A stretch of 64,000 nt of DNA from Thalia democratica. Its lineage: Eukaryota. Made by a program: the position numbers. Within the stretch, counting starts at the first letter, position 1; each line of letters begins with the position of its first letter. Of this stretch, positions 24,001 to 36,000 are shown piece by piece. The stretch covers positions 20,770,001-20,834,000 of the forward strand of contig OZ241834.1 of assembly GCA_965202585.1 (NCBI GenBank), written 5' to 3'.

Positions 24001-27000
24001 TGCCCAATTTACACAGTGTAAAGAGCAAAGTATAATAAAACAAACGTTAATGTACTGCTTCGTTTAAATGCCAGGTTTATTTACCAGTAAACTTTACTGC
24101 CATTGTCTAAATGTTATTTACTGTTTTGACAAGGTAATCAAACGAAGCAGTACATAAACGTTTGTTTTATTATAAAAAAAGTTAGTAAATATTGTTTGTT
24201 TTTGTTTGTTTATTGCAATAAATTAAAATTTGTGAAAAAATACGAAAATGTACTTTGAATACATCGTGCTTTTAATTTTCAATAACTAAATTTTCTTATA
24301 TAGTTTAACTTATATAGTAAAATTTTCTTTTTTCAATATTTTTAATACAAAAAAATACAAAAAATACAAATAAATAAGTCAATTTAATTCTACTTTGAAA
24401 AAAAAAATCAATAAAATTATTTTATAGACTATTTTCATTTAAAAGATTGTACTTAAGTAAGTTTCAATTGAGTAAGTTTTATAATATAAGCTTTAAACTG
24501 GTAACAAAATGTAGTTTATTTATTTCAAAAGACAACTTACAACTTTAAAAGCTATCCGAAACTTAGTCTTAAATAACCAACAAGTTTGCTAAAATTGTTT
24601 ATCTGTACTTTAGCTCTATAATTCTATTTAAGCAGAAAAAAATCTTTAAGACAATAAAAGCAGATTAATAATTTAAATTACTACAAACATTTTAACCAAA
24701 ATCTTTTAAAATTAGAAAAAAAACTATTAACACTTTACCATTAGCCTAAAAGTATAAACTTGTAAAATTAGGTTTACTTAACTAATATATGTAGATGTAC
24801 TGTAGGAACATTTCATTAATAAGTTTATTAAAGCAACTATTTGTTTCTAAATTTAACGATCGTTCAAAAAATAATTTATTTTTATAGGTACTGTATTAAT
24901 GTCAAAGTATAGTAAATAAGTAAAACTGAATTATTTTAAAATTATTTGTAAAAGCTATTTTGATAAAGTAATTATTTTTAAAACTTATCGTCTTATAAAC
25001 GTTCGGTTTAAAGTTAAATGTTAATACTTGAAACAAACGATTAAAAAGGATAATAAAAAAAAGGTTATTGTATTAGTAATGTACTACTATTTACATAATT
25101 AGTTTTATCTTAATTTTTTTTGTTAAGTAGTGTTATACGATTGTTGATTCTAGTTAAAAAAGACTATCGTACAATTATGCAAACGTTGTTCACAAAATTC
25201 ACTTTCTTTGCAAAAGCTTGAAAGCACTGAAGGCGGAAACAGTTTTAAAACCAAGTGAAACTGCCGAATCCAATAATGAACCGACTTTGGTGAAAAGACC
25301 TGACTCGTCCTGTCTTGCATTTTGCTGCTGAGCAAGCAACTCGTTCATGTTTTCTATGTACCGCTTTTGCTCTTCTGCGTGTGAGAGTTCCATCTTTTCC
25401 AGTTGAGCTACATGAAGCTGTTGCTGTTCTTCTCGGTTTTTCTCCAGAGTGTTTAAGTGATCCATTAAACTTCGGCTTTGTTTTGAGTGAGAGTCTTCAA
25501 GTTGTTTTATGTTAATAGCAAAGTTTTTTTGTTGTTCTTCGTGTTGCTTTTTCAACACTGCAATATGCTCTTTGCTTGCTTTGTCTTTCTTTTTCTGTAG
25601 TTCAGCCATGTCCTTATTGTACTTTTGATCCTGCAACTTTTGTCTTTCTTGAACTTTCTTAATGACATCCTTGTTTTCTAGTTCCGAACTTATTTTTTCC
25701 TCTTTAATCTTATCAATCACTTGGTTTTGTTTTCTACGCTCCTCTTCATAACTTTCTCCAAACTTTTTTATTTTTTCCATGTGCTCTTTTTGCTTTTTTA
25801 TTATGACTTCTTCAACGTCTGACTTCTTCTTTTCAATAACGTTTATTTCTTTATACAAGCCAACATTATTTATAATACTTAAAGAAATCTCTTCTATATT
25901 TGCTTCTAGTTTTACTTTATACTTGTCTTTTGTGTTCTGATCAAAGATTTTTGAGTTTGAAAATTTTGAGATAACAGTATTTTTAAGATTTAGAAACGAT
26001 TCAGTTAGTTTGTCGAGGTTTTCTAAATCGATACTTTTAGACAGGTTGAAAAACTCGTTTAAATACTGATCGTAAAGCTTGCTGTAAAAAGATTCTGACA
26101 TAGCTTGAACCAGCGTATACTCATCAGGTAGGTCTGTAGTCTTAAAGTGCTCTACAAAGTTTTCGAACATTTTCGGCAAGTCGGCGCATTTGATCGAAAT
26201 TCCGTTTAAATGCTTTCCGTTCACGTGAGATTGCTGGATAACAGTCTTTACAAAAATACCCATCTCTTCGACAAACGAATCTTCAACCGACCCCAAAGTG
26301 CCGTCTTCGTCTAACTCTTCCCCCGGGTCGGGCATCAAAAAGCATTGAACTTCTTCGAATGAGTTGTTTAATAGTTTTTTGTGGCGACTCATCACGTCTT
26401 TTTCCAGCCAATCTTCATTTAAGTAGTCAATGCCGCCTTTGAGCCCGTAGCAATGCTGATCTGCATGACGCCAATCGCGTACGAGAAACATTAAAGATTG
26501 AAATGGTTTGCTGTCACTGTTGTCTAAAATGAAATTTGCATATGTTGAAAACATTTCAAGATGCTCAAACTTGTCTTTGCTCAGCTCTCTGGTGACGTTG
26601 TAAATCTGCACGCTGCTTATAAGAGTACTTAGAGAAAACAAGATTTTGTTTTCCTTCTCAGTAGACTCGTTGTCGAAGGTACCTTGTGTGTCGATTAGTA
26701 GAAAAGCTTTTTCGGTTTCTCTCAGCTTAATTTTAAATATTTTACTGTATGCCAGCATCCCTTTAGTTTCCCGAACACTACCTGGTTTGTATTTAAAACC
26801 AGAAAAGTCGTCTGGAATGCCACTAATTTTGTCAAGAGGTGTCCCTTTTTCCATTTTAGACAATCGGTCAATAAACCAATTCAAAAGAAAGGACTTGCCT
26901 GAGCGATAAGGTCCCGCAACAACTAAAACAACAACTTCTAGACTATCTACATTGTTAAACTGTACAATGCTTTCAAAGCTGTCTTTGTGATAAACTATGT

Positions 27001-33000: not shown

Positions 33001-36000
33001 AAAAGCACTTGATATCTTCAAAAGAACTACACAGTATTTTTTTATGATCCTTCATAGCATCTTTCTCAAACCAACTTTCATTTAAGTACATTGCTCCCCC
33101 TTCAAACCCAAAATCGTGTTCTTTTCTGTGTCTCCAATCACGAATGAGGACTATCAAAGATTGAAAAGGACACTTTTCTTTTTTTTCTGAAAAAAGTTTA
33201 GCGTATGTTGAAAACATCTCCAGATTTGCCAGCTTATCTTTGCTCAGCTCTCTGTACGTTGTAAATCTGCACGCTGCTTATAAGAGTACTTAGAGAAAAC
33301 AAGATTTTGTTTTCCTTCTCAGTAGACTCGTTGTCGAAGGTACCTTGTGTGTCGATTAGTAGAAAAGCTTTTTCGGTTTCTCTCAGCTTAATTTTAAATA
33401 TTTTACTGTATGCCAGCATCCCTTTAGTTTCGCGAACACTACCTGGTTTGTATTTAAAACCTGAAAAGTCGTCTGGAATGCCACTAATTTTGTCAAGAGG
33501 TGTCCCTTTTTCCATTTTAGACAATCGGTCAATAAACCAATTCAAAAGAAAGGACTTGCCTGAGCGATAAGGTCCCGCAACAACTAAAACAACAACTTCC
33601 AGAATATCTACATTGTTAAACTGTACAATGCTTTCAAAGCTGTCTTTGTGATAAACTATGTCTTCATTGTCTTGTGAATAAGACACTATTTGAACTGCTT
33701 TCGGGTTTGCATGCATACTTTGAATCTTGCTGTATTAACTGTTTAGCTATACTGTGATACAAAAGCTAGCAACTAAATTATTGTTATTGTTAGATATTTT
33801 TAGTGTTAAACAATTATAATAAAAACGTGATTGATTTACAATACCTTTTTTTTTTTTTTTACTTTAAAAAATATATATACAACTTAAATTTAAAAACTAT
33901 TCTCGAAAAACATAAAACAAAACTTCTTTTTATTAACACTATTTAATGATAGAAATAGCATTTGTAAATTCACTTTTTTTACTGAGTTTGAAGGACATTT
34001 TTAAGCTCTTAAATCAGGATTTTTTTTTAGTCGTAAACAACTTTATGAGGTAAATTGATCGGTTAATGTTTACTTATTTACGTATTTTAATCGTTAATTA
34101 CTACCGTAAAAAAAAGAAGTAGTGAGAGTAGGAAGTAGTGATCAAATAAAGAGAAAAACTAAACCAATTAATTACAAATTAAATAATTACTACAAATTAA
34201 CTGTATTACCGAATGCTTACCGATTATCAAAAGTATAAGTGCAAAATTTTAAATTAAAGCGTGATTTTCTACAATAATAGTCGTTCAATCTACTAATTTT
34301 AAGTTAATTTAGTTACTACTGTGTTTGCGTTAACAAATATTTAAAGTGACTGATTTGTTTGTTTAGCTAAAGATAGTGGTTTCACCATTAGCAAATAAAA
34401 TCTACAAAATAAGAGGAAGTATAACTGTTTGCAAAACTATCCTATCAAAAAGTCGATCTTTATTAATAAATGAATCTTTTATAGAAAACAAAAATTCAGT
34501 ATGAAAATTTTTAAACACGTTTATATTTTACCAAATATATTTTTTTTGTAATTTATAATATGTCTAAACAGCTAATAATTCAAATTTTTATGCCCATAAA
34601 AACATTTAGCTCCAATTACAGTTAAAATGATGTTTTACTTTAACCTGTTCAACATTTTATTATTCTTTTTTTTTGCAACTCGTTTTTATGAGATAGTTTT
34701 TCAGCTAAATATTGATACAACACAGTTGACCTTATTAGCCGGTAACTTTTTAAGTTAGTTTTGTAGCTTTATATTTTTATTGAATGATAATAACCTTACG
34801 ATAAGTCATGAAACAATATTGCTTTGATTTATACTTTTTTCGGCTTAAAAGTTAAAACATATTATGTTAGCAGCTTTGCAATTTTTAAAAATAATAACGT
34901 TTTTCAAACTTTATGTTTTTCAATATTCTAGTACGTTTTGTAACTAGTTTTATTGAAACTGTTAGTTTTATGCGATTACTTCCTGTTTACACAATTGACT
35001 CTAGCTACTGTTTTCTCCGTGCTTTCTTCAACCATTTCAACGTTATATCTCTTAAATTCTGGCAACACTGCTGCTGGCCCCTCATGTTAAGCAAAAGTGC
35101 TTCATTTATTTTTCAAATAATGAAAACGAAAAACTCTTAATTTTGAAATATCTGCAAAACTTATTCATTTTACGCAAAAAAAAAAACAATTTCCGTTTTT
35201 GCTTGGTTTAATAATTTCTCTTTCTGAGTGATCAACAACGAGCCTTGAGGGGTGTTTTTATCAATTGTATATATCAAACATATATATATATATAAAAGGA
35301 AGGAGAAGAAGTATACAATATTAAATGCTCCATTCAACAAAAGTGTAGCAACACGGGTAAGGAAACGCTTTCTAGAGATTGTGGATAAAAAATTTACTGA
35401 AGACCATCCATATGTCAAAGCTTGTTATGTAGTTTTTTTATTAGATAAAATTGTTTTTGAATAAAAAAACTTAGTTAGTAAAATTTTTTTAGTTAAGTTT
35501 TATTCAATAATAAGTTGGTAAATGTTAACTAAAGTCTGTAGGTATTAATTTCATTAACTGTTAAAACCTTACAAATGCACCTATGCAAATGAAAGTCAAG
35601 TTTGAATATAGCTAAGGCTTAAGGTTATTTATTTTAGCTTAGACTAGTAAGAAAATCCTAAGTATATGATTTTTAAGCAACAAAGATACATACTATTAGG
35701 TATTTTAAAATAAAAAATTACCATATTTAAATGCTTAGAGTAAAAGTTTGATAAAAATAAAAGTAAGAATAAAAATATTATTTGGTAAAATTAAGGTTCA
35801 AAAATTTAAATTTTTTCATGAATTAAAATGAAGAAGACGTTTTTATCCGAATATTTAATTTTAAGATTTGAAAACAATATTTCCAGCTTTTTCTAGTGTT
35901 GAAATTTCTATTTTATAAAGAAAAATTTTGATAACATCTGCTTTAAGTATGGATATTTGTAAATGTTTTTTATTTATATAAAAAGCAAGGAGTGAAGAGT

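What the first reader, a model, noticed from the sequence alone, without database searches (positions are those of the whole stretch)
26572..33716. GTPase paralogs share a near-identical N-terminal half of the G domain but diverge abruptly, with a frameshift at the tract edge
Seen: ~26572-27050 and ~33231-33705 differ at only a handful of bases (about two amino-acid changes after the start), then protein identity falls to roughly half and the coiled coils diverge further. A 2-nt deletion (~33255, not in a homopolymer) lies within ~20 nt of the tract end, and the downstream 412 codons are still open. Inference: recent gene conversion or unequal exchange homogenised G1-G3 and its repair junction broke the second gene, a way to shuffle one catalytic head onto different tails.
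Basis: partly seen in the sequence, partly recalled or inferred. Interest (0 to 1): 0.68.

Follow-up and report, generated by a model that had tools for sequence, protein, structure and literature searches.

The report
Half-homogenised tandem atlastin-like GTPase genes
Two neighbouring atlastin-like GTPase genes keep the first half of their GTPase domain almost identical by copying it between each other, an ordinary kind of gene conversion, and one copy carries a 2-base frameshift that may be real or an assembly error.

Summary
Gene A (25199-27058, minus strand, 619 aa, intact) and gene B (31979-33716, minus strand) are tandem atlastin/GBP-family GTPase genes.

- **The tract.** A codons 6-163 differ from B at 7 of 468 bases (dS 0.053). 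After that, 204 of 531 bases differ and synonymous sites are saturated. The flanks are unrelated.
- **The break.** B has a net 2-base loss at 33256/33255, about 20 nt inside the 3' edge of the tract. Its downstream frame is open for 432 codons.
- **New evidence.** Unnamed relatives form two further A-type/B-type groups, and each shows the same mosaic. In segment 1, paralogs within a group match at 133-138 of 140 residues and same-type proteins of different groups at 118-128 of 140. In segment 2, paralogs match at about 50% and same-type proteins at 76-89%. Segment trees conflict and AU tests reject the rival topologies.
- **Reading.** This is recurrent non-allelic gene conversion confined to G1-G3, with an edge zone at A residues 146-164. 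It is not a single recent event.
- **Open.** Whether the frameshift is a repair scar, a young null allele or a consensus error cannot be decided without reads.

This is a new member of a known kind and is moderately interesting.

The parts
25199..27066 (-). Gene A, large last exon (inferred acceptor AG at 27068-27067). The ORF from the ATG at 27058 to the stop at 25199 is 619 aa: an atlastin-like G domain, a helical middle domain, long helices and a hydrophobic C-terminal tail.
   Evidence: ORF. Pfam GBP PF02263 E 2e-39. Atlastin-3 chain 5vgr_A E 1.8e-55 over residues 5-392. AF2 model mean pLDDT 82.8. Acceptor and reading phase read.
26570..27043 (-). Homogenised tract in gene A (codons 6-163: G1 P-loop, switch I, G3 DTQG, up to the start of helix 161-180).
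   Evidence: 7 of 468 bases differ from B, dS 0.053. Secondary structure.
33233..33704 (-). Homogenised tract in gene B.
33234..33716 (-). Gene B, 5' ORF: 160 aa holding G1-G3, ending at a premature TAA (33236-33234) after the frameshift.
33255..33256 (-). Net 2-base loss in gene B relative to gene A (A GTCACCAGA, B GTACAGA).
31979..33277 (-). Gene B, 3' frame: 432 codons open, holding the G4 half of the G domain, the middle domain, the coiled coil and the C-terminal C-V-V-Q. It is 70% identical to the intact relative P0006.
31208..31236 (-). Gene A, inferred first coding exon (ATG 31236-31234; donor GTGAGC; 62-nt intron).
   Evidence: Match to the start of P0005 read. Exons were compared one by one and never joined.
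31036..31145 (-). Gene A, inferred exon 2.
   Evidence: tblastn with P0005 residues 9-46, 63% identity. Splice sites read.
30752..30880 (-). Gene A, inferred exon 3.
   Evidence: tblastn with P0005 residues 47-87, 65% identity. Splice sites read.
28708..28764 (-). Gene A, inferred exon 4.
   Evidence: tblastn with P0005 residues 88-106, 58% identity, E 0.003 in the 5-kb region. Splice sites read.

Best explanation
A and B are old tandem paralogs, head to tail and 6.66 kb apart, of an atlastin-like large GTPase. The first 470 nt or so of their large exon encodes G1 (P-loop), switch I and G3 (DTQG), up to the loop after strand 150-156. This stretch is kept near-identical by recurrent non-allelic (interlocus) gene conversion. 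Everything downstream diverged long ago and is type-specific: the G4 'RD' half of the G domain, the helical middle domain, the coiled-coil stalk and the membrane-targeting tail. A-type proteins end in a hydrophobic tail of about 20 residues followed by two basic residues. B-type proteins carry a Cys four residues from the end, which looks like a CaaX box. The 5' edge of the tract lies about 20 nt inside the exon, where alignable sequence begins. The 3' edge lies in a zone of about 18 codons (A residues 146-164) that recurs in related lineages. The most likely reason is that the downstream sequence is too diverged to support heteroduplex, and/or that selection removes conversions that overwrite type-specific residues. 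In this assembly B carries a net 2-base loss about 20 nt inside the 3' edge. That is either a young null allele or a consensus error; I put the chance that it is real at about 0.45.

Shown: the tract, its edges, the frameshift in the assembly, the segment incongruence and the family assignment. Inferred: the conversion mechanism, the cause of the edge, the roles of the tails and the status of the frameshift.
For: 1. Synonymous homogenisation: dS is 0.053 in codons 6-163 and saturated after them; third-position differences are 5 of 156 against 106 of 177. The profile is abrupt.
2. The flanks are not homogenised, so a single unequal crossover cannot explain the pattern.
3. Segment 1 is not unusually constrained. 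Same-type comparisons between groups are alike in segment 1 and segment 2: A-P0004 118/140 and 147/177; B-P0006 120/140 and 135/178.
4. Paralogs within a group are 133-138 of 140 identical in segment 1 and 89-92 of 177 in segment 2, in all 5 pairs examined (Fisher p 3e-19 to 2e-25).
5. Trees on 12-13 rows: in segment 1 the A/B type label needs 3 changes, no better than shuffled labels (235 of 500 shuffles as low), with (A,B) at 98/99. In segments 2 and 3 the types are clean clades (100/99 and 97/99).
6. AU tests on the six-row set: segment 1 rejects (B,P0006) at p 1e-73 and (A,P0004,P0005) at p 3e-76. Segments 2+3 reject (A,B) at p 1.4e-4 and (P0004,P0006) at p 3e-4.
7. Type-specific residues begin at about 146-152, 157 and 164 in the three groups.
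8. Family: Pfam GBP; atlastin-3 and atlastin-1 at E 1e-55 to 1e-50, GBP2 and GBP5 only at about 1e-4.
9. Intact B-type relatives exist: P0006, P0390 and P0391, each 581 aa.
Against: The relatives are protein-only records from unnamed ENA/JGI assemblies, with contigs of 2-9 kb. Some of their mosaic could be transcript-assembly chimeras between near-identical paralogs. Examples are the patchy variants FKFIS/FKYKS and the MLDKKP/MNEKP starts within one 90% cluster. I cannot tell whether the P0004/P0006 and P0005/P0390 groups are two species or two paralogous pairs in one genome. P0006 and P0390 are 230/241 identical in segment 3 but only 153/178 in segment 2. The number of independent homogenisations is therefore 2-3, not a firm 3. 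Support for (P0004,P0006) in segment 1 is only 86/72, and the third group is an unresolved polytomy. There is no GC3 rise in the tract (0.37 against 0.40-0.48 in segment 2), so there is no footprint of GC-biased conversion. The direction of conversion is unresolved. No reads or nucleotide sequences of relatives were available, so no GENECONV or GARD analysis was run on DNA and no check of the frameshift was made.
Confidence: 0.85

Rival explanations
1. One reading: one recent conversion or unequal exchange homogenised G1-G3, and error-prone repair at its 3' junction created the frameshift that broke gene B.
For: The break lies about 20 nt inside the 3' edge. A single frameshift placed at random in the 1738-nt gene falls within 25 nt of that edge 2.9% of the time. 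DNA synthesis during double-strand-break repair is reported to be about 1000 times more mutagenic than replication and to give frameshifts; I saw only the abstract starts in the search listing for bioRxiv 10.1101/2023.08.09.552703 and PMC12891019.
Against: The mosaic recurs in other groups, so it is not a single event. If the break dated from the last homogenisation (dS 0.053), about 2 new stops would be expected in the 1272-nt tail, and none is seen (P 0.14; weak evidence). The abstract seen mentions -1 frameshifts in homonucleotide runs, and this break is not in a run. The location argument is post hoc and is shared with the artefact rival.
Confidence: 0.15
2. The frameshift is a consensus or polishing error and B is intact. 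Reads from A mis-map onto the 98.5%-identical tract of B, and pile-ups become mixed exactly where the two genes diverge.
For: The tail frame is open for 432 codons, against a chance expectation of 3e-17 for 424 random codons of the same composition. B is 70% identical to an intact relative and keeps the Cys at position -4 from the end. The change is not a clean single indel relative to A. Its position at a repeat edge is where such errors collect; that last point is my own inference.
Against: It is not in a homopolymer, the usual site of long-read indel errors (recalled). No read data were available, so nothing was shown either way.
Confidence: 0.45
3. Purifying selection alone keeps the N-terminal half identical, for example through an overlapping antisense ORF or an RNA element, with no sequence exchange.
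For: G1-G3 are the most conserved motifs of the family: invariant G49, G54, K55, S56, T98, D123 and G126. A 101-codon antisense open frame lies in both tracts (26604-26906 and 33265-33567).
Against: Same-type proteins of different groups differ in segment 1 as much as in segment 2 (84-88% against 76-83%), and the differences are group-specific and shared by both paralogs. Synonymous sites are identical only between paralogs of one genome.
Confidence: 0.01
4. B is rescued at the RNA or translation level. A 40-nt GT..AG interval (33257..33218) would restore the frame (…IYN|MFSTY…), or a +1 ribosomal frameshift would.
For: The interval has length 40, which is 1 modulo 3, and ends exactly at the ATG of the 412-aa ORF. 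This genome has at least one short intron, of 62 nt.
Against: The interval is purine-rich with no T-rich tract, unlike the four inferred introns of gene A, which have GT(G/T)(A/T)(G/C)(C/T/A) donors and T-rich tracts before CAG or TAG. Splicing it out would remove 14 residues that are conserved across the family and start helix 161-180. No known slippery or pause signal was recognised.
Confidence: 0.03

Closest known systems
Mosaic concerted evolution of tandem duplicates by non-allelic gene conversion, e.g. ATP1A1 paralogs of Leptodactylus frogs (bioRxiv 10.1101/2020.08.04.234435; passages read). Primate gamma-globin and RHD/RHCE are recalled examples, not checked here.
   Same: Tandem paralogs are more alike within a genome than to their counterparts elsewhere in part of the gene, while other parts stay type-specific. 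The genealogies of the two parts conflict.
   Different: Here the homogenised block is one contiguous half of a GTPase domain, and the rest is anciently diverged (about 50% protein identity, dS saturated). In the frog case a few selected sites resist conversion in an otherwise homogenised gene. Here the edge zone recurs across groups. No selection analysis was possible.
Atlastins (ATL1-3, Drosophila atlastin): ER membrane-fusing GTPases of the GBP/dynamin superfamily.
   Same: The G domain plus helical middle domain aligns over A residues 5-392 with atlastin-3 and atlastin-1 crystal constructs at E 1e-55 to 1e-50. The best named relatives are annotated as atlastin-like.
   Different: There is no pair of transmembrane segments. 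Instead there are about 200 residues of long helices (374-461 and 466-582 in the model) and then either a short hydrophobic tail (A-type) or a Cys at position -4 (B-type).
Vertebrate guanylate-binding proteins (GBP1, 2 and 5, with a C-terminal CaaX box).
   Same: The same Pfam G-domain family. B-type proteins end in C-x-x-Q like a prenylation box; that rule is recalled. They also have a long helical C-terminal part.
   Different: Sequence similarity to GBP2 and GBP5 is marginal (E about 1e-4). There is no Pfam GBP_C (PF02841) hit for A or B. One study of 204 mammalian and chicken GBPs reported no conversion or recombination by GARD (PMC10859415; passages read).

Membership tests
GBP/atlastin large GTPases (Pfam PF02263) | Significant match to the GBP N-terminal G-domain profile | tested here: met
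   A scores E 2e-39 over profile positions 13-261 of 264. B's 5' piece matches positions 15-114 (E 5e-25) and its 3' piece positions 143-259 (E 6e-10).
GBP/atlastin large GTPases (Pfam PF02263) | G1 P-loop, switch I Thr, G3 DxxG and G4 RD (motif names recalled) | tested here: met
   G49, G54, K55, S56, T98, D123, G126 and R194 are invariant, and D195 is at least 90% conserved, in a 40-sequence alignment. B has the same G1-G3 and LIRDW.
Atlastin | G domain followed by a helical middle domain alignable to atlastin structures | tested here: met
   phmmer to 5vgr_A covers query 5-392 against chain 3-405, E 1.8e-55. Helices 313-340 and 348-367 appear in the model.
Atlastin | Two transmembrane segments anchoring the protein in the ER (recalled definition) | tested here: not met
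   In A and B the highest Kyte-Doolittle 19-residue mean is 1.44 and 1.72, and both fall on the buried strand at residues 30-49. In the A-type relatives P0004 and P0005 the maximum (1.54 and 1.37) falls on the C-terminal tail. There are no two hydrophobic segments in any of A, B or P0004-P0006.
Vertebrate-type GBP | C-terminal helical domain PF02841 | tested here: not met
   No PF02841 hit at E <= 0.001 for A or either piece of B. The precomputed domains of P0004-P0006 list PF02263 only.
Vertebrate-type GBP | C-terminal CaaX box that is prenylated | tested here: inconclusive
   B ends C-V-V-Q, and 4 of 4 B-type relatives end C-S-Q-Q. None of the 7 A-type sequences has a Cys at position -4. Prenylation itself cannot be tested here.
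Non-allelic gene conversion / concerted evolution | Paralogs within a genome more alike than same-type genes elsewhere in the tract, including at synonymous sites | tested here: met
   A-B 138/140 against A-P0004 118/140 and B-P0006 120/140. dS 0.053 against saturated.
Non-allelic gene conversion / concerted evolution | Significant phylogenetic incongruence between the tract and the rest of the gene | tested here: met
   AU tests at p 1e-73, 3e-76, 1.4e-4 and 3e-4. Trees.
Non-allelic gene conversion / concerted evolution | Locus-specific sequence kept on both sides of the tract (a non-crossover patch) | tested here: met
   The 5' flanks and the first 4-5 codons differ, the 3' part is diverged, and no flank similarity exceeds 38 nt.
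Processed or decayed pseudogene (for gene B) | Several disabling lesions, or loss of constraint | tested here: not met
   One lesion only. The tail has 432 open codons and is 70% identical to an intact relative.

The most novel reading that the evidence does not exclude
The lock-step N-terminal half (G1-G3) is kept identical by selection, not merely by opportunity. On this reading a tail-anchored A-type and a prenylated B-type atlastin-like GTPase must share one nucleotide-switch half, for example to heterodimerise across the G interface or to share a regulator, while the G4 and guanine-cap half and the stalks specify different membranes. Conversion would then be the means of co-evolving the two. 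The break at the tract edge would be a natural example of conversion-associated mutagenesis.
Probability: 0.12. Interest if true: 0.65.

Novelty: new member of a known kind. Interest (0 to 1): 0.4.

Why it matters
This is a clean natural case in which conversion splits a single folded GTPase domain in two. One half evolves in concert and the other independently, and the edge zone recurs in related lineages. That bears on what sets conversion-tract limits, homology decay or selection. It also suggests that the G1-G3 half of an atlastin/GBP G domain can be exchanged between partners that are only about 50% identical in the other half. It further describes a little-known atlastin-like subfamily that lacks transmembrane segments and has alternative C-terminal anchors. 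None of this changes a textbook mechanism.

Tried and rejected
- **Selection alone.** Rejected by the between-group comparisons.
- **GC-biased conversion.** GC3 in the tract is 0.37, no higher than in segment 2.
- **A cryptic 40-nt intron.** The interval is in frame but lacks the features of the four inferred real introns.
- **Upstream exons for B like those of A.** None found; best E 0.15.
- **Further copies of the tract in the window.** None.
- **More B-type relatives.** A search with B's tail found only P0006 and P0005. The 50%-identity representative library has P0006 as the only representative above 45% identity.
- **Organism of origin.** Not identified. The window is not human-like: 26% GC.
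- **Literature.** 'atlastin' with 'concerted evolution' gave 0 papers. 'atlastin' with 'gene conversion' gave 4 papers holding both terms; the 1 listed is unrelated.
- **Not done.**
  - Genome contigs holds bacteria and archaea only, so it was not scanned.
  - No DNA-level GENECONV, GARD or between-group dS analysis was run.
  - Supplements of the papers were not consulted.
  - Complex prediction was not used, because an atlastin-type G-domain dimer would pass by likeness to solved structures.
  - Fold search was not used, because the sequence match to atlastin structures was already decisive.
  - Gene A's spliced model was compared exon by exon only; the joined sequence was not built.
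Full report
**What is there**

The window is AT-rich (about 26% GC) and eukaryotic. It has spliceosomal introns, two U3 snoRNA genes, reverse-transcriptase elements and a multi-exon CCT chaperonin gene. It has no N and nothing human-like. Two genes lie head to tail on the minus strand, 6.66 kb apart:

- **Gene A:** ORF 25199..27058, 619 aa, intact.
- **Gene B:** split into 33234..33716 (160 aa) and 31979..33217 (412 aa; the frame is open from 33277, 432 codons).

All three pieces match Pfam GBP PF02263.

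**Checking the observation**

- blastn of the two loci finds one 520-column match at 96.2% and otherwise only a 32-nt match.
- In a codon alignment, with B read through using XX at the break, A codons 6-163 differ from B at 7 of 468 bases. Two are replacements (A12V, S39I) and five are synonymous; dN is 0.005 and dS 0.053.
- Codons 164-340 differ at 204 of 531 bases, and the Nei-Gojobori dS cannot be computed because the sites are saturated. Third-position differences are 5 of 156 against 106 of 177 (binomial p 1e-85).
- Protein identity falls to 92/177 in the rest of the G and middle domains. In the coiled-coil part it is 51/214 or 48/216.
- The 5' flanks and first 4-5 codons differ, and neither flank shares more than 24-38-nt matches.
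- The break is at 33256/33255: A reads GTCACCAGA and B reads GTACAGA. It is not in a homopolymer. Relative to A it is two 1-nt losses, or a 2-nt loss plus a substitution. It lies about 20 nt before identity ends.

**What the genes are**

- A aligns over residues 5-392 with atlastin-3 and atlastin-1 crystal constructs (E 1.8e-55 to 2.4e-50). It aligns with GBP2 and GBP5 only at about 1e-4.
- An AF2 model from a 40-sequence alignment (mean pLDDT 82.8) gives a confident G domain, middle-domain helices, two very long helices (374-461 and 466-582) and a short terminal helix.
- There are no transmembrane segments.
- A-type proteins end in a hydrophobic stretch of about 20 residues followed by two basic residues. 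B and 4 of 4 B-type relatives have a Cys four residues from the end (C-V-V-Q, C-S-Q-Q), a CaaX-like ending; that rule is recalled.
- The tract ends in the loop and helix start after strand 150-156. It therefore cuts the G domain between G3 (DTQG, 123-126) and G4 (RD, 194-195).

Gene A also has four short upstream coding exons: 31236-31208, 31145-31036, 30880-30752 and 28764-28708. They are inferred exon by exon from the N-terminal extension of the relative P0005. Donors, acceptors and phases are consistent. I did not build the joined sequence. The large exon starts at 27066, so the 5' edge of the tract (27043) lies about 20 nt inside it.

**The key new evidence**

The closest relatives are unnamed ENA/JGI proteins:

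- **A-type:** P0004 and the P0005 cluster (P0385-P0388).
- **B-type:** P0006, P0390, P0391 and the fragment P0389.

They fall into two further groups, and each repeats the mosaic.

| Comparison | Segment 1 (A residues 6-145) | Segment 2 (164-340) |
|---|---|---|
| Paralogs within a group: A-B | 138/140 | 92/177 |
| P0004-P0006 | 138/140 | 89/177 |
| P0386-P0391 | 138/140 | 91/177 |
| P0388-P0390 | 136/140 | 91/177 |
| P0005-P0390 | 133/140 | 91/177 |
| Same type, different groups (6 pairs) | 118-128/140 | 76-89% |

Segment 1 is therefore not specially constrained; it is homogenised within each group.

- **Six-row trees.** Segment 1 joins A with B (93/99). Segments 2+3 join B with P0006 (98/98) and A with P0004 and P0005 (100/100).
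- **AU tests.** Each segment's data reject the other topology: p 1e-73, 3e-76, 1.4e-4 and 3e-4.
- **Trees on 12-13 rows.** In segment 1 the A/B label needs 3 changes, no better than shuffled labels (235 of 500 as low). In segments 2 and 3 it needs 1 change (100/99 and 97/99).
- **Where the edge lies.** Type-specific residues start at about 146-152, 157 and 164 in the three groups.

**Reading**

This is recurrent non-allelic gene conversion confined to the first 470 nt or so of the large exon. The patch keeps locus-specific sequence on both sides, so a single unequal crossover does not explain it. The 5' limit is where exon homology begins. The 3' limit is most simply a self-maintaining homology cliff, possibly reinforced by selection for type-specific residues. 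The second possibility is the logic shown for frog ATP1A1 paralogs (bioRxiv 10.1101/2020.08.04.234435; passages read).

**Caveats**

- The relatives are proteins from assemblies of unknown origin, so some patchiness may be chimeric assembly.
- The two extra groups may be species or paralogous pairs. P0006 and P0390 are 230/241 identical in segment 3 but 153/178 in segment 2.
- Support within segment 1 is strong only for (A,B).
- There is no GC3 signal in the tract.
- The direction of transfer is unresolved.

**The frameshift**

Three readings remain:

   - The proximity to the edge has about a 3% chance expectation.
   - Break-repair synthesis is reported to be mutagenic; I saw only the listing abstracts.
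   - If the break were as old as the last homogenisation, about 2 new stops would be expected in the 1272-nt tail. None is seen (P 0.14).
2. **A younger null allele.**
3. **A consensus or polishing error where reads of A mis-map onto B and the pile-up changes at the edge of the tract.** This explains the position equally well. It fits the 432 open codons, the 70% identity to the intact P0006 and the retained C-terminal Cys.

A 40-nt GT..AG interval (33257..33218) would restore the frame. It lacks the T-rich acceptor context of the four inferred real introns and would delete 14 conserved residues. Without reads this stays open. I put the chance that the frameshift is real at about 0.45, and that it was caused by the conversion junction at about 0.15.

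**Comparison with what is known**

Partial concerted evolution of tandem duplicates is well known, so this is a new member of a known kind. I found no paper joining atlastin with concerted evolution (0 papers). For atlastin with gene conversion, 4 papers hold both terms and the 1 listed is unrelated. A study of 204 mammalian and chicken GBPs reported no conversion by GARD (PMC10859415; passages read).

By G and middle domain the proteins belong to the GBP/atlastin family and are atlastin-like. They fail the atlastin transmembrane criterion and the vertebrate-GBP C-terminal-domain criterion. The A/B group itself is narrow: in a library of representatives clustered at 50% identity, only P0006 exceeds 45% identity to A.

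**Verdict**

The conversion inference is supported and extended from a single event to recurrent exchange with a recurring edge inside the G domain. The junction-damage inference is untested. Interest is moderate, 0.4.

Noticed in passing
window 2641-2838 (+) and 47852-48048 (+): Two full-length U3 snoRNA genes (Rfam RF00012, 106.9 and 110.7 bits). They sit inside a dispersed direct repeat, 2541-2864 against 47752-48074, 84-92% identical.
   Followed up: no
window 36548-44455: A cluster of three reverse-transcriptase ORFs: 36816-39341 (-) 841 aa, 39704-41488 (+) 594 aa and 41688-44213 (+) 841 aa (Pfam RVT_1). They are arranged as 100%-identical inverted arms of 3140 nt plus nested 100% repeats. 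Relatives carry PF00078 with PF26215 or PF28514, and a few carry GIY-YIG PF01541. This recalls Penelope-like elements (recalled name). Perfect identity could mean very recent insertion or an assembly artefact.
   Followed up: partly
window 16825-22913: A large imperfect palindrome. Eight nested inverted-repeat pairs at 86-97% complementarity surround a core of about 1.1 kb. ORFs in the arms have no Pfam match.
   Followed up: no
window 53367-61263 (-): A multi-exon CCT/TCP-1 chaperonin subunit gene. Five separate ORF pieces match successive parts of Pfam Cpn60_TCP1.
   Followed up: no
window 27067-31236 (-): Gene A has an N-terminal extension of about 111 codons, encoded by four short upstream exons that begin only about 740 nt downstream of gene B's stop. 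The relative P0386 has 26 extra residues between the third and fourth of these exons, so the extension is probably alternatively spliced. A weak second copy of the third exon lies at 29082-28996 (E 0.004 in a 5-kb search).
   Followed up: partly
window 26604-26906 (+) and 33265-33567 (+): A 101-codon antisense open frame lies inside both copies of the homogenised tract. It is probably a by-product of the identical sequence and was not examined.
   Followed up: no
proteins P0244 (1384 aa) and P0245 (1484 aa): Relatives in other genomes match the G domain in 4 and 7 separate stretches. These are either multi-G-domain proteins or tandem arrays fused by gene prediction, which would suggest that tandem amplification is common in this family.
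   Followed up: no
proteins P0006 and P0390/P0391: Two B-type relatives are 230/241 identical in the coiled-coil and tail part but only 153/178 identical in the G4 and middle part. This is a second mosaic, hinting at exchange among B-type copies as well, or at chimeric transcript assemblies.
   Followed up: partly
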